Shown: positions 2,129 through 53,446, counted from the first letter of the stretch. The stretch is DNA of 64,000 nt from Candidatus Woesearchaeota archaeon (GCA_965205335.1 OZ242164.1:832001-896000); one strand, 5' to 3'. Program-made: numbers and translations. Notes: a model not told the origin generated them from the sequence alone.

Positions 2129-2196
2129 ATTCCATTTCTCAAATTTCTATTGTAGATACCATAATATTTTTAATGCATAAGTTCTCATTTAATATT

Positions 2197-38904: not shown

Positions 38905-39405
38905 TTATAGTTTCTTATTTCTTGGCTGTTCTCTTATTGCTGGTTTCTTTGAGAATTTATTGTCTAATTTACCTGATAAAAATTCCTCAATAATCTTAGT
39001 TAAAATCCCAATAAACTCCTCTTTTCCCTTTTCATATTCTTCACGGGTTACAAATTCTATAGGATTCCATAAATCAATATATTTCTCAAGTTTTGCAACC
39101 TCATCTCTTGTTGTCATAATCTTTAATTGCTTTGAAACTCTCAAGTTAAACTCCTTAATTGAATTAATATTCTCTCTTAGACTTAATATATCTGCTCTTA
39201 AGGATTTAATATCCGATGCAATTTTTTTAAAATTTGATATAGAATTATGATCAAGCAGTTCAATCTTTTCATCTGCTAAATCAATCTTTGATTCTAAATC
39301 CTTTTGTCTCTGGGTTACTGATAACAGGGCTTTTGAGTGAGTATCAACTTTATCATAGAATGCTTCCTTATTCTTGTCATCACCGCCAAATATATTTGTA
39401 GGCAT
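38905..39405 (-). CDS. Hypothetical coiled-coil protein
   Basis: Heptad pattern; LEKYIDLWNPIEFVTRE motif. Confidence 0.7.
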   Translation of the reverse strand: MPTNIFGGDDKNKEAFYDKVDTHSKALLSVTQRQKDLESKIDLADEKIELLDHNSISNFKKIASDIKSLRADILSLRENINSIKEFNLRVSKQLKIMTTRDEVAKLEKYIDLWNPIEFVTREEYEKGKEEFIGILTKIIEEFLSGKLDNKFSKKPAIREQPRNKKL

Positions 39406-39539
39406 ATATCCAATCTATCTCTAAATACATTTTAAATATTATAGTTGTAACTATGGGATTAAAAATAAATGATGGAGAGTTACCTCTAAAAGTAGAATAC
39501 AAAATCTTAAAAAACCAAGAAATCAAAAGAGGGTAGATA

Positions 39540-40421
39540 ATGGCTTTTTTAGCAGATAGTTTTGATAGATTTGGAATAGACATAGCAGGATTTTTAAGTG
39601 ATGAGTATTTTGTTATTGGTTTATTGTTTATTGCATTTCTTCTTGGAACTTTTGCTATGTTTAAGGGTCTTTTAAGATTTTCATTCAAAAATTCTGGTCA
39701 GTTTCAGAAAAAAGAAATAAATGTTATTGCATTAATGCTATCAATTATTAGTTCTGCTGGGATTTTCTTTATTTTCAGAGATAGCCCTTCTACAATGATT
39801 TATCTCTTTGGGGGATTTGGTGGTTTGTTTATTGTAATGTTTTTGATAATCTTTTTGATGCATACAATGTATACATTTGCAGAACATTTTAAGGATGAAG
39901 ATGGTCTTTTGGGCAAGGGAGTTGGATGGATTTTCATAATGTCTTTAGGAGTTGTTCTTAGTAGTTATCTGCTTCTTGGATATTCAAATCAAGTTATAAA
40001 AGGACTTACGAACAGTGGTTTATTTAGCTGGATTTCTAATATAGTTGGTGTTGTTACTGAACTTGCATTACTTGCTGCAATTATTTTTGGTTTTATATGG
40101 CTTTTTAAAGGCAATGGTTCGGAAAATAATGATAGTAATGCACATCCCTCATCTGATAATGATTCAGGAGAAGGAATTTTTGGTATTTCAAAGAAGAAAC
40201 AGAAGAATAGAAAGGATGCTGGGGAGATTAAAGGTGTTATGGGGGATATGGTAAAAGGGATTCAAAGGGCAGACAGTGCATTTCGTGAAAAACAGGAAAA
40301 GTTGCAGGAATTAAGTAGAATGGTTCAAGCGCAAGCAGATAACTCTCTTCCTCAACAAAACGAGCAACAAGAAGGAAGTTCTCAAGGAGGTGAAAATAAT
40401 GGAAGTAATCAAAGTGGTTAG
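39540..40421 (+). CDS. Multi-TM membrane protein A with C-terminal coiled coil and low-complexity tail
   Basis: About 5-6 TMs; KEINVIALMLSIISSAGIFFI segment shared with 43805-44596. Confidence 0.8.
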   Translation: MAFLADSFDRFGIDIAGFLSDEYFVIGLLFIAFLLGTFAMFKGLLRFSFKNSGQFQKKEINVIALMLSIISSAGIFFIFRDSPSTMIYLFGGFGGLFIVMFLIIFLMHTMYTFAEHFKDEDGLLGKGVGWIFIMSLGVVLSSYLLLGYSNQVIKGLTNSGLFSWISNIVGVVTELALLAAIIFGFIWLFKGNGSENNDSNAHPSSDNDSGEGIFGISKKKQKNRKDAGEIKGVMGDMVKGIQRADSAFREKQEKLQELSRMVQAQADNSLPQQNEQQEGSSQGGENNGSNQSG

Positions 40422-40446
40422 TTGTGAATTAGGAGGTGATTTTTGA
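40399..40446 (+). CDS. Putative 15-aa mini-ORF (MEVIKVVSCELGGDF)
   Basis: Perfect SD GGAGGTGA at 40386-40393, 5 nt before ATG; stop 2 nt before the next ATG. Confidence 0.35.
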   Translation: MEVIKVVSCELGGDF

Positions 40447-40448
40447 AA

Positions 40449-41777
40449 ATGTCAAGACGAAGAAGAGATAATGTAAAACTTATTATTGTTCAGAGAATAA
40501 TCCAACTTAATGATACTCTTATAACTGAAGTTACAAGATGGATTAGACAGATTAATGATATAGATGAAATTTTAAAAAAAGATGAGAATTTGGAAATTGA
40601 AGAGAAGGATATGAGTATGAGTTTTGGAAGAAGGAATTTTTCCAAGAAATACAAAGATTTATTTAAATCAATTCAAATGTATGATAACGATTTAAAAAAG
40701 AGACTTAACAAACTAGAGGAATCATTAGAACGTGAAAATAAAGTACTTGCAAAAGTTTTATCAGAAGTTAGTGTTAGAGAAGTTACAATATCTGCAAGTC
40801 TTTTTACAAGCATTGTAGAACATAACAAAGAACAGGTTAGAATTTACACAGATTTGCATAGAAATTATTGGAATTCATTCTTTGGCAATATTCAACAAGT
40901 AGTTGGAGCTTTTGAAGAGGAGGTTTCAGAAGATTCACGTTTGTTTGTAGAGAAGTTTAGCCATTTGTGTGATGTACTTAGAAATGAACATAGAGAAGGA
41001 AAACCTAATGTTGAGGACTTGTTTCTTCATCTCATAGAATGTGTCGACATATTAAACAGATATATACCAGATAATAATTCAAAAGAAGTATTCATACAAG
41101 GTATTGAAGAGAAATCACATGCAAAAAAATTTGCAGATAATTATTTCAATAGTAGAAATGTTCGAAATCAAATCTTTTCAAATAAAAACAAAATTCATAA
41201 ATTGATTTTAAAGGCGAGAGATGGATTTAAGGCCGAAGGGATTGATAAAGATGGTAGAAAGAAAATTAAGAAATTTACAAATGATGTACTTAAAATCCTA
41301 TTTAGAGGGATTGAGGAATTTAAGGATAGGATTGATGATTTGGGAGGAAGTGATAGTAGTTCAAGTGAAGGGACAGGAAGTCTTACCCGAGAAGAGAAAC
41401 AGAAAATAAAAGAGGCATGGAATCAGATATATAGTCGGATACCTAGTGGAACATTTAATACAAGTGGTATTGTACCAGAAGATAAAGTTACCTTAAAATC
41501 TCATTTGATGAATCTAATGGACACATTATTTGGAGGAGAGGAGAAAATTAAGGAGAATAATGGAAGTTATAAGTGTGCACAGTTTTCAAAAGTATGTAAA
41601 GAAATTAGCTCATCAATAGAAGGTAGGGCTAAGCAAAGTAATGTATGGAATGATTTACTTGATTATGCAAAAAAGAATTATCTCAGTATCACCGATTGTA
41701 ATGATCAAAATGTCAATGAATTTCTCCAACGTTTACATTATGTAATATTAGATTTACAGAATCTTGAGAGGTTCTAA
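40449..41777 (+). CDS. Hypothetical alpha-helical/coiled-coil protein B
   Basis: SD GGAGGTGA at 40432-40439; helical heptad patterns; TTG 40443 is an alternative start. Confidence 0.75.
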   Translation: MSRRRRDNVKLIIVQRIIQLNDTLITEVTRWIRQINDIDEILKKDENLEIEEKDMSMSFGRRNFSKKYKDLFKSIQMYDNDLKKRLNKLEESLERENKVLAKVLSEVSVREVTISASLFTSIVEHNKEQVRIYTDLHRNYWNSFFGNIQQVVGAFEEEVSEDSRLFVEKFSHLCDVLRNEHREGKPNVEDLFLHLIECVDILNRYIPDNNSKEVFIQGIEEKSHAKKFADNYFNSRNVRNQIFSNKNKIHKLILKARDGFKAEGIDKDGRKKIKKFTNDVLKILFRGIEEFKDRIDDLGGSDSSSSEGTGSLTREEKQKIKEAWNQIYSRIPSGTFNTSGIVPEDKVTLKSHLMNLMDTLFGGEEKIKENNGSYKCAQFSKVCKEISSSIEGRAKQSNVWNDLLDYAKKNYLSITDCNDQNVNEFLQRLHYVILDLQNLERF

Positions 41778-43740
41778 AAATAGTAAGATGATCTTTTCAT
41801 TTAAGCATAAAAATCTGTATTCTGATGTAGGGAATGGGCAATGTGTGTTTATTCCATTTAATTTTAATTATATAAAAATAGAATCTTTGTATATTAAAAA
41901 TGAAGCAGGAAATCAGTTCAGTTACAGAATATATTTAGATTTGAATTGCCCATTCACACTTACTCAAAAAGGAGTGTATAGATTTAGAATTCAAAAACTA
42001 AGAACTTCAGGAAATGTAGTTTATCATTATTATTTGCTTAAAGAATGTGTTCAATTGCTAAAAGAAATATTAGAACCAATTCTTCTTGAAATTATTAAAG
42101 GTTCTGGAGATAGACACGCTGACAAACTAACAACACTTGATGAAATAAAAAGAATAAATTCTAAGAAAGAAGATAAAGGAAATGATAAGATTAGATATAC
42201 TGTTTTACACGTTGAAATAGATTCTGTACCTCAAGGGGAGGAACGAAACCCATTTTATTTTATTCAAAGCCCTGACGAAGAATTATTAACACAACTTTCG
42301 GATTTTTCTGAAATGGCAAATGTTATTTATAGCCGTAAAACAATAATGGAAGGCAATGAGGCAAAGAATAAGGTTAAAGAAATATTTAATAAATATGATA
42401 TACCTGAAGATCTTCAAATGCAATTAAGATCTGCATTCAAGATTGATGCTTTTATAGATAGGGATATGAAGAAAATTCAAGTTGGGTGCGGTGGTATTCT
42501 ATATGGTCCTTTTGGAACAGGAAAGACTTTTATTATTCAAAACCCAATTAGAGAAATTTTTGAAGGAGTTTTAGGTTTTGGATATGAAGAGGTTAATCTG
42601 GTTGAAAATGTAGGTACAGACGATAGTATGTATTGGGGAGCAGCAATGAGAACAGTAAATAGGGTCTTCATGCCTATATTTAAGAAAATTCAAACAGAGC
42701 AAAAGCCTTATTTCTACTTTGTTGATGAAGGAGATAAATTTGCCAAGACTCCATCGCATGCAGATGATGATGAAGGGGCAGCGGGTATTAAGAATCTATT
42801 AAATCCTAAGGCGTATCCGGGATTAATATTATGTTTGAACACAAATCTTAAGTCTTCTGAGTTAAATATGGCTTTAATTGGTAGAAGATTAGAAGGTGTT
42901 GAGATTGGGTATCCTAATGAGGAAACTTGTTTTAAAATGTGGAAGATATATAAAAGACTCGTTTTTGGTGAAGATAATGAAGGGAATATTACAGATGAAC
43001 AATACAGAGAATTAGCAAAAATTGTTGCTGGTAGAATTGGTATTGATGCTATTGAAAGTTTTTGTTCACATTATAGAACGCTTACACAATCCGAGATAAA
43101 TGAGGATGTGGATTTTATTGAGTTTAAAAATAAATTTTTTAGGTATGTCTTAAAAAGAGTAAATGATAGAATGGAAAATGACATAAATAAGATAACTTCC
43201 AATCCTGCCACTAATCGTATGAGTGATAGTGAAATTGAGAGTATTAGAAGAGATGCACAGGAGCAAATAAGGAGTATAACAGCAGCATTTTCTGGAAAGG
43301 ATTCAACAGCTATAAATTCTGAATTAATAGAAAAACTTGCTGAGAGTGGAGAGAAGAATCTCTATTTTAAAAATTACAAAATGTTTCGTAAATTACTTTG
43401 TGAGGGTGGAGTGAAGGATGCTATTTTTAAGTACTATAATAATAAATCAGAAATAGATGATGAAGATATAAGCAAGTTAGAAGAATGTTTCGGAAATATA
43501 GATTTTATTATAAGATTTTATGAATATGCACCTTCTGATGTTAAAAATAAATTATTGCCTCTTATTAATAGCATAAATACACTTAGAAATTACATGATTC
43601 ATATTCTATTAGATTTGAATTCTAACAGATTTCGAACAGAGTTTCCACATCTTATAACTGAGAGTGGAAAAAATTTAAGTAGTGAACAAATTGTGGGAAT
43701 TACTACATACCTTATGAGGGAATTGCCAAGTCTTGAATAA
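41764..43740 (+). CDS. Divergent classical-clade AAA ATPase (CDC48/Vps4/PAN-like module) with unknown N- and C-terminal domains
   Basis: Walker A GPFGTGKT, pore-loop-like SMYWG, Walker B YFVDEGD, SRH-like NTN...LNMALIGRRL, then YPNEE. Confidence 0.85.
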   Translation: MRGSKNSKMIFSFKHKNLYSDVGNGQCVFIPFNFNYIKIESLYIKNEAGNQFSYRIYLDLNCPFTLTQKGVYRFRIQKLRTSGNVVYHYYLLKECVQLLKEILEPILLEIIKGSGDRHADKLTTLDEIKRINSKKEDKGNDKIRYTVLHVEIDSVPQGEERNPFYFIQSPDEELLTQLSDFSEMANVIYSRKTIMEGNEAKNKVKEIFNKYDIPEDLQMQLRSAFKIDAFIDRDMKKIQVGCGGILYGPFGTGKTFIIQNPIREIFEGVLGFGYEEVNLVENVGTDDSMYWGAAMRTVNRVFMPIFKKIQTEQKPYFYFVDEGDKFAKTPSHADDDEGAAGIKNLLNPKAYPGLILCLNTNLKSSELNMALIGRRLEGVEIGYPNEETCFKMWKIYKRLVFGEDNEGNITDEQYRELAKIVAGRIGIDAIESFCSHYRTLTQSEINEDVDFIEFKNKFFRYVLKRVNDRMENDINKITSNPATNRMSDSEIESIRRDAQEQIRSITAAFSGKDSTAINSELIEKLAESGEKNLYFKNYKMFRKLLCEGGVKDAIFKYYNNKSEIDDEDISKLEECFGNIDFIIRFYEYAPSDVKNKLLPLINSINTLRNYMIHILLDLNSNRFRTEFPHLITESGKNLSSEQIVGITTYLMRELPSLE

Positions 43741-43804
43741 TTTTATTGATTAATCCTAAGAAGTGAAAGCAAATTTTTATAAGTCATTAAGATAAGGAAA
43801 GGAT

Positions 43805-44596
43805 ATGTTTAGAAAATATTATTTAGCTCTTTTTGGTTTTCTCTTAGCAATAGAGAATTCTTTCGCTAATACCATTACAGAAACTCTCGTGGACACCATT
43901 AGCAGTATTCTTGGTGAAAGGGGCTTGTCAAGTTTAATAACTAATAAATATGTTGTTTTTGCTCTAATATTTATAGGAGTTTTAGTAGGAACTTATAGTA
44001 TTCTTAAAATTCCTCTGTCTATGGCATTTAAAAGCCATCAAAAAGAAGCCAATGTAATTTCAATAATGATATCATTAATATCAACTACTGGGATGTTTTT
44101 TATTCTTACTAACGGAGAACCTTCTCGAGTAGAAGCCGCAATTGCTATTTTTGGAGGAACAATTGGTCTTATAGTTCTATCCATATTTGGAATTTTACTT
44201 TTGGTTTTAGTTGATTATATACTCGTAAATACACTTGAGAGAGAAAGACTATCTCGCTGGTGGGTTGCTGGAATGATTGGTACAGGACTTTTAGTAACTT
44301 CCGTGTTATTAGTAGTTATAGACAAAACAGTAGAATTATATACTGAAACTTCCATGACTCAGTGGTTAAGTGGGTTACTTTTATCATTAGAAAATATATT
44401 TACTATTATCTTAATTTTAACGTTCATCTATATTATTTTCCGAAGTAGGAGAAAAAGCAAAGAAGGGCAAGAATTATTAAAAAGCAATCCTAATATTAGA
44501 AAAGCACAAAATATTATTAAAAAGATTAATAAGAACAATAAAAAAATGAAAGAAATACTAAGGGATATTAAACATAAAGTTGGAGGAGGTTCATAA
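43805..44596 (+). CDS. Multi-TM membrane protein A' (paralog of 39540)
   Basis: KEANVISIMISLISTTGMFFI, IFGG..GL and WLS..L motifs; signal peptide; C-terminal coiled coil. Confidence 0.8.
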   Translation: MFRKYYLALFGFLLAIENSFANTITETLVDTISSILGERGLSSLITNKYVVFALIFIGVLVGTYSILKIPLSMAFKSHQKEANVISIMISLISTTGMFFILTNGEPSRVEAAIAIFGGTIGLIVLSIFGILLLVLVDYILVNTLERERLSRWWVAGMIGTGLLVTSVLLVVIDKTVELYTETSMTQWLSGLLLSLENIFTIILILTFIYIIFRSRRKSKEGQELLKSNPNIRKAQNIIKKINKNNKKMKEILRDIKHKVGGGS

Positions 44597-44597
44597 A

Positions 44598-45641
44598 ATG
44601 GCAGGAAATTTAATAGCGGATTTAATCGAAGATTTTAAAAGTTTAGGGACATTGGCTGAAGTAACTCAAGATGATTTAAAAACTCTTGAAGGTTTATCTG
44701 TAAATCCTGATGAGTTAGATGAAGGTCCACTGGCAAGTATAATTTCACCATTTAAAAAAATGTATCGTAATAATCACTTAAAACTAACAAGTGATGTAAA
44801 TGGAGCTATTGAACACCTTAAAGGAGTTAGTAAGTATAGTGATGAAATAGTAAAATGGCTTGGAGACTTTAGAGTTATAAGAGAACATTCTGAATTAATG
44901 AAGTTATTTAATAATCCTAATCAAGAAGGTGCTACGTTCTCAAGTCAAATTGAAGGATTGTCTCGAAATTTTGATTTATATGTCCAAAAGGTAGGTATGT
45001 CTTTAGAAAAAGAAGAAAATTTAATAGGTGAATCTGCTGAAATAGAACATATGTCTACTTATCGTGATAAAATAGTTAAGAAATTAGAAGAAATTAAAAG
45101 TATTCAAGGGGAGAATAATTATAAAGACATTAAGGAAATGTTTATAGAGTATGCTACAGGAGAGATAGGTAGGAGAATTAGAGATAGTACATCTATAAGT
45201 AAAGTAGTAAGAGAAGTTCTTCCTCAAATTAATCAGTTAATACTTCTGGCAGAAGATGAAATTTTTAAGAAACTTAATGGAAATTTTGATAGTTATAGGA
45301 GGGGAATTATTAGAGGTTTCTTTGTAATATTTTTTGGAGATTTAGAAAAGTTTAAAGAAGAAAATTCTAATGAATATCTAGAAAATTGCCTTAAAGAAAT
45401 TAATGGTCTAGAAACATTGAAATATGGGAATTTTGAAGTAAATATTAAAGACCCAAGTAGAATTGAATATAAAGGTAAGCCCAATGAAATCTTCAAACTT
45501 TCTTCTACCACGTTATTGCATTCAGTTCTTATAAGTCCAGATGGTCTTTCTTTAAGGTTTAAAGATACAAATGATGGAAAAGAAGTGACTAAAAAGATTT
45601 CTACATTAAACCTAAGGACACCTCCTCCCCAAAAGATGTGA
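44598..45641 (+). CDS. Hypothetical helical protein B'
   Basis: SD GGAGGT at 44585-44590 before ATG 44598; Pro-rich C-terminus LRTPPPQKM. Confidence 0.75.
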   Translation: MAGNLIADLIEDFKSLGTLAEVTQDDLKTLEGLSVNPDELDEGPLASIISPFKKMYRNNHLKLTSDVNGAIEHLKGVSKYSDEIVKWLGDFRVIREHSELMKLFNNPNQEGATFSSQIEGLSRNFDLYVQKVGMSLEKEENLIGESAEIEHMSTYRDKIVKKLEEIKSIQGENNYKDIKEMFIEYATGEIGRRIRDSTSISKVVREVLPQINQLILLAEDEIFKKLNGNFDSYRRGIIRGFFVIFFGDLEKFKEENSNEYLENCLKEINGLETLKYGNFEVNIKDPSRIEYKGKPNEIFKLSSTTLLHSVLISPDGLSLRFKDTNDGKEVTKKISTLNLRTPPPQKM

Positions 45642-45784
45642 CATCTCAAAGAGAGCAGTAAGTTTGGGATGTTGAAGTTTCAACGTCTATTTCTGTTAAG
45701 GTTAATAATAATGAAAATAAAAATGATTACTAATGAGTAGTTAAAAAGGAAAGATTTATAAATAAAAGTCTCTTACTCCTTTAC

Positions 45785-46507
45785 ATGGAAAGTTCAGGTA
45801 TTAAAAGAAAAGCTAGCGAGTCAGGCACTCCTAATGGTAGTGATAGAGAAAATAGGTTAACAGAAATCATAGGTTATGTAACCATTGGTAATTTAAATTC
45901 ATATCGGAAGAAACATCCTAAAATAGCAACAGGAGTATTGGCTCTAGCATTAGCAGGTGGTATATTAGGAATTAAATATTGTGGTAATAATGAAGCAGTT
46001 AATGTTCCTCCTACTGTTCAAGAGATCTATACTGAAAGATCAAAGGAGAAAAAACCTGATGAAGTAACAATTTTAGAGGATACATCTAAAGGATCTGATG
46101 TTCCAGCTACTCCACAAACACCTAGTGTTCCAAGTAAAAGTGTTGAGAGGCAACCATATAGTAAAGGACCAGAGAAAGAACCAACAAAGGTCCTCTTACA
46201 AAAAAAAAGCCATTTAGAAGAAATGTGTCCTAACTATAATCCATCTGAAGAGGACAGAGATGATATACTTAGATGTATAAATAAGGAAGCACGTTATTTA
46301 GTTCACGGTAAGCGTGAAGACCAACAATATTTAACAAGTATATCTGGAGTAGTTAATCTTTTAGAAGATGAAAGAATAAGAGGAATTAAGAAAAGAGCAA
46401 TTCTTAGTCCTTATGCTCAAAGATGTGGAATTTCAGAAGATGAAATAAGAAGTTCGAATATAGAAGATTTAGAAGAAAAGGTAAATAGTTGTTATACCTC
46501 AAAATAA
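45785..46507 (+). CDS. Single-TM protein with Pro/Lys/Glu-rich linker and small Cys-containing domain
   Basis: TM ATGVLALALAGGILGI; own TATA at 45755-45762. Confidence 0.7.
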   Translation: MESSGIKRKASESGTPNGSDRENRLTEIIGYVTIGNLNSYRKKHPKIATGVLALALAGGILGIKYCGNNEAVNVPPTVQEIYTERSKEKKPDEVTILEDTSKGSDVPATPQTPSVPSKSVERQPYSKGPEKEPTKVLLQKKSHLEEMCPNYNPSEEDRDDILRCINKEARYLVHGKREDQQYLTSISGVVNLLEDERIRGIKKRAILSPYAQRCGISEDEIRSSNIEDLEEKVNSCYTSK

Positions 46508-46871
46508 AATAATTAATTCTATAATTCTTTAGATAATGTAATTCTTATAGTGGAATCTTTTAATAAGTATTACCATAATTTTACAGTGCAAGATAACTAA
46601 ATTTATAAGAAAATATCTTATAAATTTTATCCTTCTCAGAAATAAGTAAATCAATAAATAAAGAGACAGTGTTTTTGAAAAAACAAAACTATGGATATAT
46701 TTTTACATATAAAATTGATTATGTACATACAATTAGGATAGAGTCTCTCTTTAATAAAATTATGTCAGAAAAGGCACTTAATTGTTTGCTTAAATTTATC
46801 CTTACTTGGAAGTAACAAATACAAAAGCTTTATAAATAATAAGATATTATTACTATTTAACAGTAAAGAAA

Positions 46872-48296
46872 ATGAAAATGAAAACAAATTTAGAGGGTTT
46901 GTGTATACGAGGACTTGCATCCTCATTTAAAAAAAGTATAACGACTGCCGCATTAGCGGCAATGATGGCATCGGGTCCACAAGTTTCCGCACAACAAGCG
47001 GCAATGATGGCATCGGGTCCACAAGTTTCCGCACAACAATATAATCTCGCAGAAAGAACAGATTGTGTTAGTGAAAATGTGGAAGTAGTTTCTCTTGATG
47101 ATAAACAAGGATATTCAGTTGCAAAAACATATTGTCCTAGTAAAGGTAAACCAGTTGGACAATTTAGTGATAGACTTCGAGAGTCTTTGGGTTTGGAACA
47201 GGATGAAAGTAAAGTAATAGAGGCATATTATCTTGATGATTCAGGAAAGCCTGCACTTTCTCCTATTGGTGTGTATTGTACTTTGAATGATTCTCATATG
47301 ACTGACTTAACTCATTTAGGAAGAGATCATCCTTCAGGTGTCCCACTTGGAGTTAGAGTTAGAGAATCTACAGAAGAAGATGGATGTGCTGTTGAATCAG
47401 AGGTTCATTATGCGATTGAAAATGATTTCAATGAAAAATTTGAGGATTTAACTGGTAGAATTAGAAAATTAGAAGAGATTGGTAGTAGTCGCCCACAATC
47501 AGAAAAATCATCGGAAGCACCAGTAGAACCACCTGAGGTACAAGCAGTTCCTGCAGAACCAGTAGAACCACCAACGGAAGTTGTACAAATTCCTCATTTC
47601 GTAGTACCATTAAGAGGTAACAGCACTAAGAATTTACCAGTTGTAGTTTACGAAGATAATTTAGTTAAATCAGTTATAGGATTAGATCCAAGGAATGGAT
47701 ATTCTCCAGAATATGGTAATGCAAGTTATGACTCATTCCAGCTTTCTAATGAAGAAATTGCGAAAGAGTTATTAAGACAAGCAAATTTGGAAAAATTAAT
47801 ACATTCTGTTTCCTCAAAGATAGGTGCTATGGCTGTTAAAGAACATTATGGAGGTGCCCCTGAATTAGGAAGAGATATAATTTTACATGAAACTTTAGGT
47901 GATCTTGGTCTCTCTAAAAAAGAGTTACTTAATGGTGGGTTCAATTACGGAGCAGATTCGGCTGCAGCAGACTTAGTAGTAGAAAGAGCTAAGGAGGGAG
48001 GAATATATACAATGCAAGATCTTGCTGGACTTACAGACAAAAATCTTCTTTCAAAGTTTCTGGATCTTGGATATAAATTTATAACGGTTAAACGTATTGT
48101 CCCCGGCAGTTCTTTTAATCATGTGCGTACTAAAGGAACAAGAAGAGCATTAAACAAAGAGATTAAACGTGCTAAGAAGGATGTTTTTAAAACATGTGGA
48201 TCTTTAGGCTCCCAGAATGGGAGGATAGCATGTGCTTTTGATAGAGGATATCGTGTAATAGGAGAAATTGTTGGGAACAGAGGTAATAGAAAATGA
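46872..48296 (+). CDS. Hypothetical secreted protein
   Basis: Signal-like N-terminus; Pro/Glu-rich linker; ATGA overlap with the next gene. Confidence 0.7.
   Translation: MKMKTNLEGLCIRGLASSFKKSITTAALAAMMASGPQVSAQQAAMMASGPQVSAQQYNLAERTDCVSENVEVVSLDDKQGYSVAKTYCPSKGKPVGQFSDRLRESLGLEQDESKVIEAYYLDDSGKPALSPIGVYCTLNDSHMTDLTHLGRDHPSGVPLGVRVRESTEEDGCAVESEVHYAIENDFNEKFEDLTGRIRKLEEIGSSRPQSEKSSEAPVEPPEVQAVPAEPVEPPTEVVQIPHFVVPLRGNSTKNLPVVVYEDNLVKSVIGLDPRNGYSPEYGNASYDSFQLSNEEIAKELLRQANLEKLIHSVSSKIGAMAVKEHYGGAPELGRDIILHETLGDLGLSKKELLNGGFNYGADSAAADLVVERAKEGGIYTMQDLAGLTDKNLLSKFLDLGYKFITVKRIVPGSSFNHVRTKGTRRALNKEIKRAKKDVFKTCGSLGSQNGRIACAFDRGYRVIGEIVGNRGNRK
46956..47039. repeat. Perfect 42-bp tandem duplication (AAMMASGPQVSAQQ x2)
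   Basis: gcggcaatgatggcatcgggtccacaagtttccgcacaacaa occurs twice. Confidence 0.97.
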
Positions 48297-48871
48297 ATAA
48301 AAAATTAATTAAAATAGTAGGTGCTGCAGCGTTATTATATGGCGCATCTACATTAGAGGCAGGACCACTTCATACTGGTTATGTTGCTAATTTGGAGAAA
48401 AAATATGTAAAAAGAATGTGTAAAGATAACAAAGGATTAAGGGCTAAATATAGAAATAATCTAGAACAGTGTGTACAAGATGTTAATGGAAGTTTCAATC
48501 AAAAAGCTCAGGTAGTTAAGAGGTTAATGGATTTCAATGTTGCAACAGGATATCTTGGTGATAGTCTGCCTCGTCTACCTCAATATTCTATGGTAAGTGC
48601 TTCTGAAGAAGACAAACTTAGAATAGCAGCAAAAGTAGCAATAGATGTGACTCCAGAAACATTGTCATACTTTAATGCCACAATGCTAGAAGTCAAAGGA
48701 CACAATAAAATTAAGGGAGACCTTAATGAAGCAATAAGAGATGATATAATTGCAACGGGAGTACTTACTGCTGTGGGTTCGTTTTTCTTAGGAAATGGTG
48801 TAGCGAAAGCAGTTGAAGGAGTTAGTCATAAATCCCCTAAGATTATGATAAGAGCACCGGGTGTAAATTAA
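48293..48871 (+). CDS. Hypothetical secreted protein with hydrophobic Gly/Ala-rich C-terminal helix
   Basis: Signal MNKKLIKIVGAAALLYGASTLEA; C-terminal IIATGVLTAVGSFFLG. Confidence 0.7.
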   Translation: MNKKLIKIVGAAALLYGASTLEAGPLHTGYVANLEKKYVKRMCKDNKGLRAKYRNNLEQCVQDVNGSFNQKAQVVKRLMDFNVATGYLGDSLPRLPQYSMVSASEEDKLRIAAKVAIDVTPETLSYFNATMLEVKGHNKIKGDLNEAIRDDIIATGVLTAVGSFFLGNGVAKAVEGVSHKSPKIMIRAPGVN

Positions 48872-48895: not shown

Positions 48896-51800
48896 ATGAA
48901 AAAACAATTACTACTGATGCTGTTTGCAATCTTATTATCTTTAGGATTTGCATTTGCTTCAGAGACACAAGGTGAACAATATCATGTTTTCCAGATGAAC
49001 TTTGCAGATGAAGTTCCAAATTCAGTATTTGTAACAGGTGGAGAATGTGCCAATACTCTGTGTAGTACATTTAAACCATCATCACAAGTTGAAGTGTACA
49101 ATGGCGCACAAGCATTTGAATGTGACAGATTATATTCAAATAATGTGAATGACTTCAAATCATGTATGGCGAGAGCTAAACTGAGTTCAAACATTCATCC
49201 AATACAAAATAATGGAGATTATGTTGCAGTTAAAGTTAATATACCTAACAATTATGCATTTGGACACTTACTATGGTTCTCAACAGAAGGAGACACATAC
49301 ATACCTTGGTATGCTCAGGTAACATATGACTGTTCAGGTGGAGAAGTATGTTTTTATCCAGCGGCAAGTAGCAAGGGAAATGCAACAGACATTAACTTTG
49401 ACAAATTTCAAAGAATTGCAATTGCTGAAGTAAGTCAAGTTAACATAAAAAACCTTGACGATGACACAAAACCAATTCAAATAGAGGTTCCAGTTCAAAT
49501 AGAAGAAACTGTTTGTTCAGCTTATAGAGCAGCTAATGGTAACTATGAAGTTCCAAACTTCCCCCAAGGATACTCTGATCTTAGTGCTAACACAAACATT
49601 AAACTAACTATTAAAAACAATCATAACAGCGAAGTGCTATTAACAGAAGATGTTAACTTACCTATTGAAGCAGACACATGTGCAGCGCTTCATGCATTTA
49701 CATGGACTCCTCCAGAAGATTTACTTGACACAGAAATTAAATTTAGAGTGGAAACAGATGTTGTTGACAAACAAGTAAGTGAGTCCAAAAAAGACTTCCA
49801 CGAAGTAATTGAAACAATCTACCCAGAAGACCTTACCGGACAATGTTGGAGTAGAGCTTACGATTTAGTATTAACAAATGATCCATATGAAGAATTATCA
49901 ACAAGTATAGTTGAAATAACTAAAGGAGAGAAAGTATATGCAATATTTAATGCAGGAACATGGAAAGGTAATGAAATAACTCCTCTTGAAACATCTTGGC
50001 AAATTAAATTTAACAGTACAGTAGTTAAAGAGGGAGAATTTCAGACTCAAACAAATGATGTGCAGAAAATTACAGTTGATCTAACAGAGGCTATCTCAGT
50101 TGTTGATGCAGGAAATTATAGAGTTCAATTAATAACAAGAGCATCAAGTACTCAGAATTGTGATGTGAGTGTACCTGTAGTTCAGAATGTGAACTTAGAC
50201 GTTCGTGAAATTGATATGTTTGAAGTTGAATTTGAAGTAATGGAAGAAGGAGACCAATACAACAAAATAGATGGAGCAAACATTAGCTTAGTATTAACCG
50301 AGTCTCACGAGTACTTTGCAAGCAAACCAGAATATGACAAAAGTCAAACAACTGACACGCAAGGAAAAACTACATTTAACGAAGCTACAAGAGGAGAATA
50401 CACGTACACAATAACAAAAAGTGGATTCCAGAGAGTTACAAACAATGTAATTGTTGGTTCAGACACAACGGTAACAATCTCTCTACCAAAAAATAACAAT
50501 GCACCTACAATTGATTTACCTCACAACAGAACAGTAGATATTAAGAGCACATTAGAACTAGATTTAGAAGATTATGTACATGACTTTGAAGATGCATTTA
50601 GTGATTTAAATCTTAGCGTAAGAAAAGCATCAGGAAACGCGCAAGTGCAAATAGAGAACTCAAAATTAATAGTAAAAAAGAATTCAGTTGGAAATGTTGA
50701 CCTTGAAGTAACAGTAACTGACAGTCAAGGGGCATCAGCTAGTGATTCAATGTTAGTTAGTTTCATTGATAACAATGCTCCTGTAATTAATTCATTTGTT
50801 GCAAATCCTACTAACGGAGATGCTCCATTTACAACTACATTTGAAATAGATGTTCATGATGCTGATGGAGATACTCTAAGATGTACTATAAACTATGATG
50901 ATAGAAGTACAAATAAAGAAGGTAACTGTGATGAAATTGATGGAATAACTCACACATACAACACAGTTGGAACATACAATGTAGTTTTAACAGTAAGTGA
51001 TGGCAAAAATGATCCTGTTAAACAAACTGAGCAGGTATTTGTATTTGAAAGAAACTACTCATCACCTCATATTGGGTTTTTCACATTAGAATCAAGCAAT
51101 GGTGATTATATACCAACTGATTTAACATTAGTTTGGGAAGTAACTCACCCTGACAACCTTGATACAAAATGTTTCCTTAGAATTAATGGAGTTTCAGAGA
51201 GCGTTAATTGTAAAGATACAAAGAATATAAACAACTTTGACAGATTAGGAGAATCCAGATTCATATTGCTTGCAGATGATGGGGAACACCAAGTATCAAG
51301 AAAACACATTAAAGTATTTTATAGAGAAGAAGATGAGGAAAACACACCACCAGTAATTGATGAATTCACAGTTAATACAACAAAAAGCACATTAGGTATG
51401 ATTGCACAATTTACCACAGCAGTATCAGATGCTGATGGAGATAGTTTAAGATGCTCTATTAACTTTGGAGATGGAGTTACAATACAAGACTCAGAATGTG
51501 ATCCATTAAGAAGTGTAGAACATCAATATAATGGAGTAGAAGACTTCACTGCAATATTTAGTGTAACAGATGGAGTAGACACAACATCAGAATCTATTAC
51601 AGTTGCATTAGAAGAAGATAAAGTAGAAGTGAATAACACACCTCCAGTAATTGAAGAATTCACAGCAGATCCAACAGAAGGCTCGGTAGGAGTGGAAGTA
51701 ACATTTACTACAAGAGTATCAGATGTTGATGAAGATAGTTTAAAATGTTCTATTGACTTTGGAGATAGCGTTACAGAAGATGATACATACTGTACATTTT

Positions 51801-53446
51801 TAGAAACAATAAAACATCAATACAACAGTTTAGGAACATACACCGCAACATTTAATGTAACAGATGGAACAGACACAGCATCAGAATCTATTACAATCAC
51901 AGTAACTGATGAGGAAAACTCACGTCCAGTAATTGAAGAATTCACAGCAGATCCAACAGAAGGCTCAGTAGGAGTGGAAGTAACATTTACTACAAGAGTA
52001 TCAGATGTTGATGAAGATAGTTTAAAATGCTCTATTGACTTTGGAGATGGAGTTGCAGAAGATGACACATATTGTGTCTTCTTAGAAACAGTAGAACATC
52101 AATATAACACTGTGGGAACATTCACTGTAAGATTTAGTGTAACAGATGGGACAAACACAGTCTCAGAATCTATTGCAATCAATGTAAGAGAAAACAACGC
52201 ACCTGTTATAAACCGATTTGAAGCAAGCCCTAGCGGAGGACGTTCACCTCTTATTGCTTCATTTTATGTGGACGTAACTGATTCAGATGGAGATAGTGTA
52301 TCATGTAGAATTGATTTTGGAGATGGAACATTATCACATCAGGATGATTGTTACTTATTAAATGGAGTGACTCACCAATACATAGGAATTGGTAAATATA
52401 CTGCAAAATTAGTTGCAGAAGATGAGTTTGGTAAGGAAATTTATGCAACAGAAACAATTAGAGTAATATCTCAAGAACCTTTAGTTGAGTTCTTTACTCT
52501 AAGCACATCAACAGGAAGTTATATCCTTCCAAATGACATAACACTGCAATGGAAAGCAACTCACCCTGATGAAGTGCCAGTTACATGTGACTTAATAGTT
52601 AACGGTGCTAAAACATCTAATGTTGGATGTCAGAACTCAAAAACACTCTCAAACTACAATGTTGAAGGAACTGCAAAATTCGAGATAGTTGTAAGAGATG
52701 GATATGGAAACTCAGATAGCAAGAGCATTGAACAATTATTTGCGAAAGTTCCGTTAACTCATGAAAATTTAGACTTGGAAATTGACTCTGTAATTGAACC
52801 GGGAGATTTCAGATTCTACTTAGAAGTTAGTGACGAGAGTATTGCAAGAAGACAATTGTACTTAGAACCACAAATCAGATGTAATGGAGTTACAAGCCCG
52901 CTATCTAACAGCAGAAAATTAGAAACTTCCGCTAAATCAAGTGTATACATTGGTTCAGTTACAAGATTTGAATTTATAACAAATACACTTGATTACCGTT
53001 CAAATATTCCAAAAGAAACTCAGTGTGTATTCTCTGTAAGAGTTACAGACAAATATGGAACAGACCTTGAGTTAAATGAGGATGTAAGATTTGAATACGG
53101 AGTGGGTCAGACTCAAATCCAATCAATTAGAGGAAGTGGAACTGACATTGCAAATTACATGCAAACAGCTCTTAGTGGCAATATTGAACCAGGATTTAAT
53201 TCAGTAGAGTTCAATTTGATAAATAATGAAGTAGAGGACAAAAGAATTACAGTCTCACTATTGAGCAGAGAACTTGGAATCAATTATGTATTGGATAGAA
53301 GATTAGAACCAGATACATTACTGAGAGTTCAAATTCCAATATACATTTCAGATAATGTAGAATCAGGAATGTATCCTGTTAGAATTAGTTTCACTGATGA
53401 AAACGAAGGAAGACAAACAAGATACACTTACATAAACATTGAATAA
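48896..53446 (+). CDS. Large secreted PKD/Ig-like repeat surface protein (putative adhesin)
   Basis: Signal peptide; repeated NxxPVIxxF...D.DGD.L.C.IDFGDG...H.Y...G.Y...V.DG PKD units. Confidence 0.88.
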   Translation: MKKQLLLMLFAILLSLGFAFASETQGEQYHVFQMNFADEVPNSVFVTGGECANTLCSTFKPSSQVEVYNGAQAFECDRLYSNNVNDFKSCMARAKLSSNIHPIQNNGDYVAVKVNIPNNYAFGHLLWFSTEGDTYIPWYAQVTYDCSGGEVCFYPAASSKGNATDINFDKFQRIAIAEVSQVNIKNLDDDTKPIQIEVPVQIEETVCSAYRAANGNYEVPNFPQGYSDLSANTNIKLTIKNNHNSEVLLTEDVNLPIEADTCAALHAFTWTPPEDLLDTEIKFRVETDVVDKQVSESKKDFHEVIETIYPEDLTGQCWSRAYDLVLTNDPYEELSTSIVEITKGEKVYAIFNAGTWKGNEITPLETSWQIKFNSTVVKEGEFQTQTNDVQKITVDLTEAISVVDAGNYRVQLITRASSTQNCDVSVPVVQNVNLDVREIDMFEVEFEVMEEGDQYNKIDGANISLVLTESHEYFASKPEYDKSQTTDTQGKTTFNEATRGEYTYTITKSGFQRVTNNVIVGSDTTVTISLPKNNNAPTIDLPHNRTVDIKSTLELDLEDYVHDFEDAFSDLNLSVRKASGNAQVQIENSKLIVKKNSVGNVDLEVTVTDSQGASASDSMLVSFIDNNAPVINSFVANPTNGDAPFTTTFEIDVHDADGDTLRCTINYDDRSTNKEGNCDEIDGITHTYNTVGTYNVVLTVSDGKNDPVKQTEQVFVFERNYSSPHIGFFTLESSNGDYIPTDLTLVWEVTHPDNLDTKCFLRINGVSESVNCKDTKNINNFDRLGESRFILLADDGEHQVSRKHIKVFYREEDEENTPPVIDEFTVNTTKSTLGMIAQFTTAVSDADGDSLRCSINFGDGVTIQDSECDPLRSVEHQYNGVEDFTAIFSVTDGVDTTSESITVALEEDKVEVNNTPPVIEEFTADPTEGSVGVEVTFTTRVSDVDEDSLKCSIDFGDSVTEDDTYCTFLETIKHQYNSLGTYTATFNVTDGTDTASESITITVTDEENSRPVIEEFTADPTEGSVGVEVTFTTRVSDVDEDSLKCSIDFGDGVAEDDTYCVFLETVEHQYNTVGTFTVRFSVTDGTNTVSESIAINVRENNAPVINRFEASPSGGRSPLIASFYVDVTDSDGDSVSCRIDFGDGTLSHQDDCYLLNGVTHQYIGIGKYTAKLVAEDEFGKEIYATETIRVISQEPLVEFFTLSTSTGSYILPNDITLQWKATHPDEVPVTCDLIVNGAKTSNVGCQNSKTLSNYNVEGTAKFEIVVRDGYGNSDSKSIEQLFAKVPLTHENLDLEIDSVIEPGDFRFYLEVSDESIARRQLYLEPQIRCNGVTSPLSNSRKLETSAKSSVYIGSVTRFEFITNTLDYRSNIPKETQCVFSVRVTDKYGTDLELNEDVRFEYGVGQTQIQSIRGSGTDIANYMQTALSGNIEPGFNSVEFNLINNEVEDKRITVSLLSRELGINYVLDRRLEPDTLLRVQIPIYISDNVESGMYPVRISFTDENEGRQTRYTYINIE
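51350..52190. repeat. Tandem PKD-coding repeats (periods 294 and 282 bp)
   Basis: ccagtaattga at 51350, 51644 and 51926; the last two units are nearly identical at DNA level. Confidence 0.9.

What the first reader, a model, noticed from the sequence alone, without database searches (positions are those of the whole stretch)
39540..45641. Uncharacterised duplicated membrane module around a divergent AAA unfoldase (A-B-AAA-A'-B')
Seen: A and A' are paralogous multi-TM proteins (KEINVIALMLSIISSAGIFFI / KEANVISIMISLISTTGMFFI) with C-terminal coiled coils, each followed by a strong SD and a large helical protein. B and B' show weak shared patterns (EVTRWI..FSKKYKDL..SLERENKVL / EIVKWL..FSSQIEGL..SLEKEENLI). 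The ATPase has Walker A/B, an aromatic pore loop (SMYWG) and tandem arginines (GRRL). Established: such AAA proteins thread polypeptides (Vps4, Cdc48, PAN). Inference: a membrane-remodelling, fusion or protein-translocation machine, possibly forming host contact channels. No MIT domain was recognised, so it is not a canonical ESCRT/Cdv system.
Basis: partly seen in the sequence, partly recalled or inferred. Interest (0 to 1): 0.75.

Follow-up and report, generated by a model that had tools for sequence, protein, structure and literature searches.

The report
Lineage-specific membrane-linked AAA gene cluster
A small symbiont-type archaeon carries a conserved, fast-evolving set of genes for a five-helix membrane protein, a large helical protein and an unusual protein-unfolding ATPase, whose partner proteins resemble nothing known and whose function has not been tested.

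Summary
The five genes are real and form one co-directional, tightly spaced cluster in a 1.2 Mb, about 30% GC archaeal genome whose relatives are titled Nanoarchaeales/Nanoarchaeia (DPANN). A and A' are true paralogues (BLASTP E 7e-15). The ATPase is a single-ring classical AAA with Walker A/B, a YWG pore loop and an invariant arginine. The claimed B/B' similarity is not supported (BLASTP E 1.0; hhalign probability about 0.1%). The conserved unit is the triad A-B-AAA, kept in the same order in 13 of 13 loci with enough sequence, in at least five different neighbourhoods. A'-B' follows in 5 of 10 loci that could be judged. Module proteins are 20-48% identical between genomes whose GyrA is 71-78% identical. 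A, B, B' and the ATPase N-domain match no Pfam, NCBIfam, PADLOC or PDB family, and only weak PHROGs families of unknown or generic function. One relative has lost the ATPase domain but keeps A, B, A' and B'. Another has a reduced A-AAA form. My best reading, at moderate confidence, is a membrane-anchored A-B assembly that the AAA hexamer remodels or disassembles. The role may concern the cell envelope or host contact, but this is untested. Binding could not be tested because the complex-prediction queue stayed full.

The parts
39540..40421 (+). A: 293-aa membrane protein. It has 5 predicted TM segments, a conserved cytoplasmic loop, a Gly-rich TM3 (G91 invariant) and a cytoplasmic amphipathic tail. 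It lacks the signal/lipobox-like N-terminus seen in most orthologues.
   Evidence: orthologues
40432..40439 (+). Shine-Dalgarno-like GGAGGTGA ahead of B
   Evidence: sequence read directly
40443..41777 (+). B: 444-aa cytoplasmic all-helical protein (start TTG 40443 or ATG 40449). It has an N-terminal long three-helix bundle (3-180), a middle helical domain, an acidic/Ser linker (about 301-315) and a C-terminal domain that differs between close relatives.
41764..43740 (+). Divergent single-ring classical AAA ATPase (658 aa from TTG 41764; the database copy P0001 is 650 aa, which fits ATG 41788). It has a family-specific beta/alpha N-domain (about 20-235), an AAA module (about 240-445) and a helical C-extension (about 450-655).
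43805..44596 (+). A': 263-aa paralogue of A, with a signal-like N-terminus, 5 TM segments and a basic amphipathic tail
44582..44590 (+). Shine-Dalgarno-like GGAGGAGGT ahead of the ATG of B' at 44598, inside the end of A'
44580..45641 (+). B': 353-aa cytoplasmic protein (likely start ATG 44598). It belongs to a family of its own, linked to the same-position proteins of L063, L049 and L050. No homology to B was detected.
45667..45688 (+). Terminator-like hairpin followed by a T-rich run, after B'. It may mark the end of the five-gene unit.
   Evidence: consistent with chance: 6 found against 4.9 expected
45785..48871 (+). Neighbours whose link to the module is uncertain: a TM-anchored 240-aa protein, a secreted 474-aa protein and a 192-aa protein with a signal peptide and a C-terminal hydrophobic segment. 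Proteins of similar size and layout hold the same positions in L049, L050, L051 and L063, without demonstrable sequence homology.
48896..53446 (+). Neighbour: 1516-aa secreted PKD-domain surface protein. It lies next to the module in 6 genomes but is also present in genomes where no full module was found.

Best explanation
This is a lineage-specific, membrane-anchored AAA machine of a DPANN (Nanoarchaeia-type) archaeon. The core is a three-gene unit. A is a five-helix membrane protein (N-terminus outside) with conserved cytoplasmic loops and an amphipathic cytoplasmic tail. B is a large soluble all-helical protein. The third gene is a single-ring classical AAA ATPase with its own N-domain and a long helical C-extension. 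In this genome an old duplicate of A (A'), paired with an unrelated-looking partner (B'), follows the ATPase.

Proposed mechanism (inferred): A and A' hold B and B' at the cytoplasmic face of the membrane. The ATPase forms a hexamer, docks through its N-domain and threads a cytoplasmic tail of B or A through its Tyr-Trp/Val-Gly pore loops. This disassembles, resets or remodels the A-B assemblies, with the same logic as Vps4 on ESCRT-III, NSF on SNAREs or Pex1/Pex6 at the peroxisome membrane.

The module is accessory and evolves fast. Its role is most likely at the cell envelope or cell-cell contact, but that step is the weakest.

Shown: the genes, the A/A' paralogy, the ATPase motifs and fold, the conserved gene order, the restricted distribution and the rapid divergence. 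Inferred: hexamer formation, threading, A-B-AAA binding and the biological role.
For: - Gene order A-B-AAA on one strand, with gaps of 0-25 nt, holds in 13 of 13 loci from 12 genomes with enough upstream sequence: window, L048-L052, L063, L064, L072-L076.
- These loci sit in at least five neighbourhoods: glycogen genes/PKD protein; YecM...TatD/UvrA; DP2 polymerase; ligase/UvrC; UDP-glucose dehydrogenase.
- In the 20 genomes of the genus, 11 have A with the family AAA 2-3.5 kb downstream on the same strand, and 6 have neither at the thresholds used.
- All 14 same-position B proteins form one phmmer-linked set.
- The AAA profile hits AFG2, VAT, Vps4, Rix7 and Cdc48 at E 4e-20 to 1e-12. The AlphaFold2 model has pLDDT 85.2. 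The AAA module aligns to Yta7, NVL, Pex1/6 and Mpa at Z 14.6-14.2 and to FtsH, p97 and Rpt subunits by Foldseek at E about 1e-8 to 1e-7.
- Walker A Gly-Lys, Walker B Asp-Glu, N361 and R375 are invariant in 34 sequences. The pore-loop aromatic residue is present in 9 of 11 aligned members.
- Topology: basic loops and a K-rich tail lie inside. Cys pairs lie in the TM4-TM5 loop of orthologues. Most orthologues have a signal/lipobox-like N-terminus.
- A' sequences fall on one side of a branch (support 89/72; 87% of bootstrap trees), so the duplication is old.
- GyrA is 71-78% identical across five of these genomes, against 20-48% for the module proteins.
- A reduced form in G007 puts a split A directly upstream of a related 439-aa AAA.
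Against: - No binding, localisation or expression evidence exists. The complex prediction never ran.
- In L063/L067 the gene at the AAA position keeps the N-domain but has no AAA module, while A, B, A' and B' stay intact. ATP-driven threading by this protein is therefore not always needed.
- Two of 11 members lack the pore-loop aromatic residue, and three have an altered first Walker A glycine.
- The B model is only moderately confident (pLDDT 62.5). Its best fold matches (Z 11.7 or less) are within the noise for helical bundles.
- The N-domain fold was not tested on its own.
- Adjacency to the PKD surface protein holds in only 6 genomes. That protein also occurs in 17 of 20 genomes of the genus, including G008, G009, G015 and G018, where no module was found, and G007, which has only the reduced form.
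- The other triad loci sit among housekeeping genes, which gives no support to an envelope role.
Confidence: 0.4

Rival explanations
1. AAA-driven export or injection translocon. A/A' oligomers form the membrane pore, the ATPase unfolds cargo and pushes it through, and B/B' are cargo or effectors (or adaptors) with exchangeable C-terminal domains. Functionally this would resemble PTEX (HSP101-PTEX150-EXP2), which I cite from memory, or ATPase-fed secretion of helical effectors.
For: - B of close relatives keeps 72-74% identity over the first 77% of its length but carries a different C-terminal domain of roughly 100-130 aa after the acidic/Ser linker (P0006 and P0007 against the window and P0005).
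- B and B' evolve fastest (about 20-25% identity).
- A has a Gly-rich TM3 with an invariant Gly.
- In 6 genomes the module lies upstream of secreted proteins and a giant PKD protein. An SLT protein follows directly in L051, and two SLT proteins lie in the window.
- Castelle et al. 2021 (passages read) propose that such SLT proteins act on bacterial hosts.
Against: - There is no evidence that A forms a pore or that B leaves the cell. B has no signal sequence and no known toxin or effector domain.
- Half of the loci that could be judged have no surface-protein context.
- The L063 locus without an ATPase domain keeps A and B intact.
Confidence: 0.15
2. Antiviral defence or conflict system. An ATPase sensor or motor is coupled to a membrane effector (A), and membrane damage or signalling follows infection.
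For: - Distribution is patchy within one genus: 11 of 20 genomes have the full triad.
- Divergence is very fast relative to GyrA.
- Decay or reduced forms occur in L063 and G007.
- B has variable C-terminal cassettes.
- Many defence systems pair an ATPase with TM proteins (general knowledge).
Against: - No PADLOC model matches. The best hits are TRIP13 at E 0.052 and ZorB at E 0.0098, which are noise.
- No nuclease, protease or other effector domain is present.
- The neighbours are housekeeping or surface genes rather than defence islands.
- PADLOC is built mostly from bacterial systems, so its silence is weak evidence.
Confidence: 0.12
3. Dedicated membrane-protein quality control or extraction. 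The ATPase pulls A-type proteins (or their clients) out of the membrane, as Msp1/ATAD1, Cdc48 or FtsH do, with B as adaptor.
For: The module is a classical AAA with a threading pore loop. It is always encoded next to a polytopic membrane protein with a cytoplasmic tail. ATAD1 and FtsH are among the fold matches.
Against: A housekeeping quality-control role would be expected to be conserved and slow-evolving. This module was not found in full in 6 of 20 genomes of the genus, and no full-length member was found in 296 other genomes of the order. The genome already has two Cdc48-like proteins and one PAN-like protein. There is no protease domain or partner.
Confidence: 0.1
4. Analogue of the CdvA-CdvB-CdvC (ESCRT-type) division or vesicle-budding machinery.
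For: The gene order is the same: membrane-binding protein, then helical protein, then single-ring AAA. Vps4/CdvC are among the best sequence and fold matches of the ATPase domain. The N-terminal bundle of B aligns weakly to CHMP3 and BAR domains (Z 8-10).
Against: There is no MIT domain. The CdvC model scores 15.7 bits against a cut-off of 650. No Snf7 match occurs in the genome. Two FtsZ genes are present. The module is patchy within the genus. The fold matches of B are within the noise for helical proteins.
Confidence: 0.04
5. Part of an integrated virus or other mobile element.
For: The ATPase gives weak hits to two PHROGs of unknown function (E 3.5e-8 and 7.4e-6, over the AAA region). One locus (L073) has a phage-type integrase about 1 kb from A.
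Against: tblastn of the ATPase finds no match in 50,697 phage records. No capsid, terminase or replication genes are nearby. The integrase appears in 1 of 13 loci only. GC content is the same as in the flanks. Synteny with chromosomal genes is kept in several genomes.
Confidence: 0.03

Closest known systems
Vps4/CdvC with ESCRT-III/CdvB and CdvA (archaeal Cdv operon)
   Same: Both have a single-ring classical AAA that threads polypeptides. The ATPase-domain profile hits Vps4/CdvC at E 3e-15 to 4e-12 and at fold Z 11-13. The operon logic is the same: membrane-associated protein, then helical protein, then AAA.
   Different: There is no MIT domain; the N-domain is beta-rich plus helices. No Snf7/ESCRT-III is present. 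A is a polytopic membrane protein, not a PRC-barrel protein. The ATPase has a long helical C-extension. FtsZ is present.
Cdc48/VAT/AFG2(Drg1)/Rix7 type II AAA unfoldases
   Same: These are the best sequence matches of the ATPase module (E 4e-20 to 1e-12). They share the pore-loop motif and arginine finger.
   Different: Only one AAA module is present, against two in those proteins. The N-domain profile finds nothing in the PDB at E<=10. The genome has its own two Cdc48-like genes, and the family's ATPase modules do not group with them in a quick tree.
Membrane-directed AAA machines: Pex1/Pex6-Pex15, Msp1/ATAD1, NSF-SNAP-SNARE
   Same: These classical AAA rings act on cytoplasmic tails or coiled coils of membrane-anchored proteins. 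Pex1/6, ATAD1 and Sec18 are among the fold matches (Z 11.3-14.2).
   Different: There is no homology outside the ATPase module. The partners A and B have no detectable relatives among solved structures or Pfam families.
TRIP13/Pch2 (with HORMA partners)
   Same: These are weak leads only. The protein-atlas features of the N-domain point to TRIP13_N at 0.82. The bacterial Trip13 fold match is Z 13.9 over the ATPase module. PADLOC TRIP13 scores E 0.052.
   Different: A score of 0.82 is within chance. No Pfam TRIP13_N hit occurs in 34 members. No HORMA-like partner is present, since B is all-helical.
PTEX translocon of Plasmodium (HSP101-PTEX150-EXP2), recalled from memory as a functional analogy
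   Same: It combines an AAA+ unfoldase, a helical adaptor and a membrane pore, and a host-dependent organism uses it to move proteins across a membrane.
   Different: There is no homology. HSP101 is a two-ring ClpB-type ATPase. Nothing here shows a pore or export.

Membership tests
Classical AAA ATPases (Pfam PF00004 clade) | Match to PF00004 above the curated cut-off | tested here: met
   33.9 bits against a cut-off of 21.2, E 5.1e-8. 34 of 34 family members match.
Classical AAA ATPases (Pfam PF00004 clade) | Walker A GxxGxGK[ST] and Walker B hhhhDE | tested here: met
   GPFGTGKT 248-255 and FVDEGD 318-323. G253, K254, D321 and E322 are invariant in 34 sequences. Three relatives have D in place of the first Gly, and L063 lacks the whole module.
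Classical AAA ATPases (Pfam PF00004 clade) | Pore loop 1: aromatic-hydrophobic-Gly | tested here: met
   Y290-W291-G292 in the window. An aromatic residue is present in 9 of 11 aligned members.
Classical AAA ATPases (Pfam PF00004 clade) | Sensor-1 Asn and second-region-of-homology arginine | tested here: met
   N361 and R375 are invariant in 34 sequences. Their assignment as sensor-1 and Arg finger comes from alignment to VAT/PAN and general knowledge.
Classical AAA ATPases (Pfam PF00004 clade) | Hexameric ring with ATPase and unfolding activity | not testable with these tools
   Needs biochemistry or a multimer model.
Vps4/CdvC (ESCRT) | N-terminal MIT domain | tested here: not met
   No MIT family in Pfam. 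NCBIfam CdvC scores 15.7 bits against a cut-off of 650. The modelled N-domain has five strands at 27-91.
Vps4/CdvC (ESCRT) | ESCRT-III (Snf7) partner encoded in the genome | tested here: not met
   PF03357 gives 0 matches in G000 at E<=0.01. The control rang only in Sulfolobus and below the cut-off, so sensitivity is limited. B and B' have no Snf7 hit.
Cdc48/VAT type II AAA | Two tandem AAA modules (D1, D2) | tested here: not met
   One PF00004 stretch and one AAA module in the model.
Cdc48/VAT type II AAA | Double-psi barrel N-domain | tested here: inconclusive
   The N-domain profile finds nothing in PDB sequences. Fold searches of the whole model barely tested residues 1-190.
TRIP13/Pch2 | TRIP13_N domain and a HORMA partner | tested here: inconclusive
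   Atlas score 0.82 is a lead only. No Pfam TRIP13_N in 34 members. No HORMA family among the neighbours.
Known anti-phage defence systems (PADLOC-DB 2.0) | Significant match of any component to a PADLOC model | tested here: not met
   The best hits are E 0.052 (TRIP13) and 0.0098 (ZorB) among the five module proteins. Nine proteins, including four neighbours, were scanned.
Provirus / mobile element | Virus hallmark genes, an integrase at the borders, or similarity to phage records | tested here: not met
   PHROGs gives only two AAA-region hits of unknown function. No tblastn match in 50,697 phage records. An integrase lies next to 1 of 13 loci.

The most novel reading that the evidence does not exclude
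The triad is a previously unknown type of AAA-powered membrane machine. An episymbiotic DPANN archaeon would use it to move proteins (B-type cargo with exchangeable C-terminal domains) or membrane material across its own envelope toward a host cell. In other words, it would be a minimal archaeal translocon or cell-contact device with no homologue among known secretion, fusion or ESCRT systems.
Probability: 0.12. Interest if true: 0.9.

Novelty: new variant of a known kind. Interest (0 to 1): 0.55.

Why it matters
How DPANN archaea attach to hosts, exchange material with them or defend themselves is largely unknown at the gene level. Most of their lineage-specific genes have no annotation. This work defines a compact, recurrent three-gene unit with a clearly mechanical component (a threading AAA ring) tied to a new membrane protein family and a new helical protein family. 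It gives concrete, clonable targets: ATPase assays, trap mutants, co-purification and cryo-EM. It also provides natural comparison cases: a lineage without the ATPase domain, a reduced A-AAA form, and exchangeable B C-termini. If the unit acts at the cell surface, it would be a new kind of AAA-driven envelope machine. If it is a defence system, it would add an archaeal-specific type.

Tried and rejected
No binding test exists.
- The genome-contig scan with AAA alignment A1 used Walker A patterns and returned only generic AAA genes in 39 loci.
The smaller A8 gave 5 loci, and 3 in metagenome contigs.
- Foldseek of the B model against the PDB: best E 0.53.
- VIA wide search for B: best Z 11.7 (a de novo bundle); BAR/F-BAR Z 9-10; CHMP3 Z 8.1. 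All are below the tool's stated noise level for helical proteins.
- Protein atlas for B: no usable hit. For the N-domain: TRIP13_N at 0.82, a lead only.
- Profiles of the N-domain, B and A against PDB sequences: 0 hits, 5 hits and 39 hits respectively at E<=10, none significant.
- Pfam on all members of A7, A6 and A9: only P-loop families for the ATPase, and nothing consistent for A or B.
- The AAA C-extension against B and against B' by hhalign: probability 0.13% and 0.04%.
- The downstream proteins of about 420-520 aa and about 190-230 aa that hold the same positions could not be shown to be homologous. Only L063 against L051 for the short one reached E 8.5e-4 in a 20-sequence set.
- Sequencing runs: no RNA holder was listed.
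- Literature keyword searches and passages of PMC8204110 and PMC6393860 gave no description of this cluster. Keyword searches cannot find an unnamed family.
- The supplementary tables of PMC8204110 (lineage-specific family modules) were not opened and might list these families.

Full report
**Setting.** The window is G000:C1:832001-896000 of a single-contig 1.2 Mb genome with about 30% GC throughout. It encodes a thermosome, TFIIB, Hjc, Hef, eIF2-gamma and aRF1, so it is an archaeon. Public records that hold the closest relatives of the finding's genes are titled Nanoarchaeales, Candidatus Nanoarchaeia or 'archaeon UBA583', and one protein is labelled Woesearchaeota. That makes it a DPANN archaeon. 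No tRNA or Rfam family lies in the window.

**The observation.** Five co-directional ORFs lie exactly where stated:
- A, 39540-40421
- B, 40443-41777
- the ATPase, 41764-43740
- A', 43805-44596
- B', 44580-45641

Gaps are small. A to B is 21 nt, with GGAGGTGA ahead of B. B to AAA overlaps, or leaves 10 nt if the ATG at 41788 is used, as in the 650-aa database copy P0001. A' to B' leaves 1 nt to the ATG at 44598, preceded by GGAGGAGGT. A terminator-like hairpin follows B' at 45667-45688, although such hits are no more frequent here than in shuffles.

A and A' are paralogues (BLASTP E 7e-15, 33% over 125 aa). They are the only two copies in the genome. A has five hydrophobic segments. A' has a signal-like segment plus five. 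B, the ATPase and B' have none.

Alignment with orthologues shows several features:
- a signal/lipobox-like N-terminus in most orthologues, which the window's A and its closest relatives lack
- basic cytoplasmic loops
- a Gly-rich third helix
- Cys pairs in the outside loop between helices 4 and 5
- a K-rich cytoplasmic tail with a heptad-like amphipathic stretch of about 30 residues (a crude score of my own)

The claimed weak similarity of B and B' is not supported. The best BLASTP E is 1.0. hhalign probability is 0.12% and 0.08% with larger profiles. No phmmer link appears at E<=1e-3. B' proteins do form a family of their own: L063 links to the window at 1e-7, to L049 at 1e-15 and to L050 at 1e-9, while L051 is marginal.

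**The ATPase.** PF00004 is the only Pfam family found (33.9 bits).
- A single-sequence search of the PDB gives VAT and PAN at E about 1e-3.
- A nine-sequence profile gives AFG2/Drg1 (4e-20), VAT (2e-18), Vps4 (3e-15), Rix7 and Cdc48, always over the ATPase module only.
- With 34 family sequences, G243, G248, P249, G253, K254, D321, E322, K343, N361 and R375 are invariant.
- The AlphaFold2 model is good (pLDDT 85.2, pTM 0.74). It shows a beta-rich N-domain (strands at 27-91) followed by helices, one AAA module (about 240-445), and a helical extension of about 200 residues.
- Foldseek and VIA-align match only residues about 190-510 to classical AAA proteins: Yta7 Z 14.6, NVL 14.4, Pex1/6 14.2, Mpa 14.2, Vps4 12.9.
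- The N-domain was barely tested by those searches. Its profile finds nothing among PDB sequences at E<=10. No Pfam family appears in any of 34 members. A protein-atlas lead to TRIP13_N (0.82) is within chance.
- The genome also has two Cdc48-like genes and one PAN-like gene. In a quick tree the family's ATPase modules do not group with them.

**B.** The model is all-helical but only moderately confident (pLDDT 62.5). It has a long three-helix bundle (3-180), a better-defined middle domain, an acidic/Ser linker and a poorly modelled C-terminal domain. Foldseek finds nothing (best E 0.53). VIA matches to designed bundles, BAR/F-BAR domains and CHMP3 (Z 8-11.7) are within the noise that the tool states for helical proteins.

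Close relatives of the window's B exist. P0005 is 84% identical over its full length. P0006 and P0007 are 72-74% identical over the first 77% but carry a different C-terminal domain after the linker, of the type seen in L050 and L051. The C-terminal domain is therefore exchanged between close strains.

**Conservation and distribution.**

*Gene order.* Using the ATPase, A and B as probes I collected loci from 12 genomes of the same GTDB genus. In 13 of 13 loci with enough upstream sequence (window, L048-L052, L063, L064, L072-L076) the order is A-B-AAA on one strand. In L053 the contig starts just before B, and A was not detected. All 14 same-position B proteins fall into one phmmer-linked set, although L052 and L053 join it only at E 0.001.

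*The A'-B' pair.* A'-B' follows the ATPase in 5 of the 10 loci with at least 2 kb downstream (window, L049, L050, L051, L063). A' sequences lie on one side of a branch (89/72; 87% of bootstrap trees), so the duplication predates these species. One genome has two triads (L049 and L064).

*Neighbourhoods.* They differ between loci:
- glycogen genes upstream and secreted proteins plus a giant PKD protein downstream
- YecM...TatD/UvrA
- DP2 polymerase
- ligase/UvrC
- UDP-glucose dehydrogenase

*Range.*
- In the 20 genomes of the genus, 11 have A with the family ATPase 2-3.5 kb downstream, and 6 have neither at the thresholds used.
- In 301 genomes of the order, full-length ATPase matches occur only in the genus (G000 and G001 among those sampled). 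Four other genomes give AAA-module-only matches in ORFs of 410-441 aa.
- An A-family profile finds only weak partial matches in 5 of 394 genomes outside the genus.
- Among 1.84 billion representative proteins, 26 of the 150 best hits (one is the window's own) have a best stretch that starts within the first 27 profile positions. That means they include the family N-domain.
- The A family has 27 clusters at 90% identity, all named hypothetical where named.

**Rate of change.** GyrA of G000 is 71-78% identical to that of five module-bearing relatives. By comparison:

| Protein | Identity between genomes |
|---|---|
| A | 27-48% |
| ATPase | 23-33% |
| B | 23-25% over long BLASTP alignments (30% over a 69-aa local hit) |
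| A' | 28-31% |
| B' | about 20% |

**Natural variants.**
- In L063 (and the identical L067), the gene at the ATPase position encodes 444 aa with the family N-domain but no AAA module. A, B, A' and B' are intact there.
- Three members have Asp in place of the first Walker A glycine, and two lack the pore-loop aromatic residue.
- In G007, which scored as module-free, a 439-aa AAA groups inside the family in a quick tree (SH-aLRT 89). Directly upstream of it lie two ORFs that match the N- and C-halves of A, separated by a frame change at a lysine-rich run. No B is present (E 2e-5 and 1e-6 in a 15-ORF set).
- G013 has an A-like gene followed by a short B-like gene.

'Absent' therefore means 'not found with these profiles'.

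**Surroundings.** Downstream of B' lie a TM-anchored 240-aa protein, a secreted 474-aa protein, a 192-aa protein with a signal peptide and a C-terminal hydrophobic segment, and a 1516-aa secreted PKD protein. The PKD protein is 35-45% identical in relatives. It lies a few genes downstream of the module in G000, G001, G002, G011, G012 and G017. It is also present in 17 of 20 genomes of the genus, including G008, G009, G015 and G018, where no module was found, and G007, which has only the reduced form. It therefore does not depend on the module. The small proteins between them keep position and layout but not detectable sequence similarity. An SLT lytic transglycosylase follows B' in L051, and two SLT proteins and an M15 peptidase lie elsewhere in the window. 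Castelle et al. 2021 (PMC8204110; abstract and one passage read) proposed that such SLT proteins of Woese-/Pacearchaeota act on bacterial cell walls.

**Known systems excluded or not reached.**
- PADLOC gives nothing significant.
- NCBIfam gives nothing near its cut-offs.
- PHROGs gives two AAA-region hits of unknown function.
- tblastn of the ATPase finds no phage match.
- The genome has two FtsZ genes and no Snf7 match.

**Interpretation.** What is shown is a recurrent, tightly linked triad of a new membrane protein family, a new helical protein family and a new subfamily of classical AAA ATPase. The triad is restricted to a narrow DPANN clade, evolves fast, and is sometimes duplicated, reduced or partly lost.

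From what is established for classical AAA proteins, the ATPase most likely forms a hexamer that threads a polypeptide. Its constant partners A and B are the obvious substrates or adaptors. I therefore favour ATP-driven remodelling or disassembly of membrane-anchored A-B assemblies (confidence 0.4).

The biological role is open. Envelope or host-contact functions, export of B-type cargo, antiviral defence and membrane-protein extraction all remain possible. The relative without an ATPase domain cautions that A and B can persist without this motor.

**Literature.** Keyword searches and the passages read gave no description of this cluster. Supplementary tables were not opened.

Noticed in passing
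window 56160-58475, 58485-59747 and 32002-32949: Two SLT lytic-transglycosylase-domain proteins (771 and 420 aa) and an M15 peptidase sit in an archaeal genome. These are peptidoglycan-directed enzymes of the kind that Castelle et al. 2021 linked to possible bacterial hosts of Woese-/Pacearchaeota.
   Followed up: partly
P0005-P0007 against window 40443-41777: Close strain-level relatives of B share 72-85% identity over the first roughly 300 residues but carry one of two unrelated C-terminal domains after an acidic/Ser linker. This points to cassette exchange.
   Followed up: partly
L063:12246-13580 (identical in L067): At the ATPase position, a 444-aa protein keeps the family N-domain but has no AAA module. 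A, B, A' and B' around it are intact.
   Followed up: partly
L093:5226-7715 (G007): A reduced variant: an A-like gene split by a frame change at a lysine-rich run lies directly upstream of a 439-aa AAA that groups with the family. No B gene is present.
   Followed up: partly
window 39453-39536: A 27-codon ORF lies in the same frame as A and ends at a TAG three bases before A's ATG. The window's A and its closest relatives lack the signal/lipobox-like N-terminus that most orthologues have.
   Followed up: no
window 46872-47050 (start of the 474-aa secreted protein): There is an exact tandem duplication of a 14-residue stretch (AAMMASGPQVSAQQ twice) at the signal-peptide end.
   Followed up: no
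window 1403-2128 and 1951-3393: A 241-aa ORF matches only the C-terminal part of citrate synthase and overlaps the start of a 480-aa methyltransferase ORF. It may be a truncated or fragmented gene.
   Followed up: no
window 59-1297, 5761-7571 and 16524-17387: A Fic/DOC protein, an M78-peptidase (IrrE-like) plus DUF4411 gene pair, and an rve-type integrase lie in the upstream part of the window. These are accessory or mobile-type genes.
   Followed up: no
window 38905-39405 (- strand): A 166-aa coiled-coil-like protein is 57-65% identical in relatives (L050, L051, L063, L068). There it lies a few kb upstream of the module, separated from it by glycogen-metabolism genes that the window lacks at this place.
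   Followed up: partly
L084:490-1866 and L083:754-1932: Distant A-like proteins occur outside the genus. One has a signal peptide, A-like TM helices and a charged coiled-coil tail of about 200 residues. The other has a Gly/Ser-rich linker and a C-terminal beta-rich domain.
   Followed up: no
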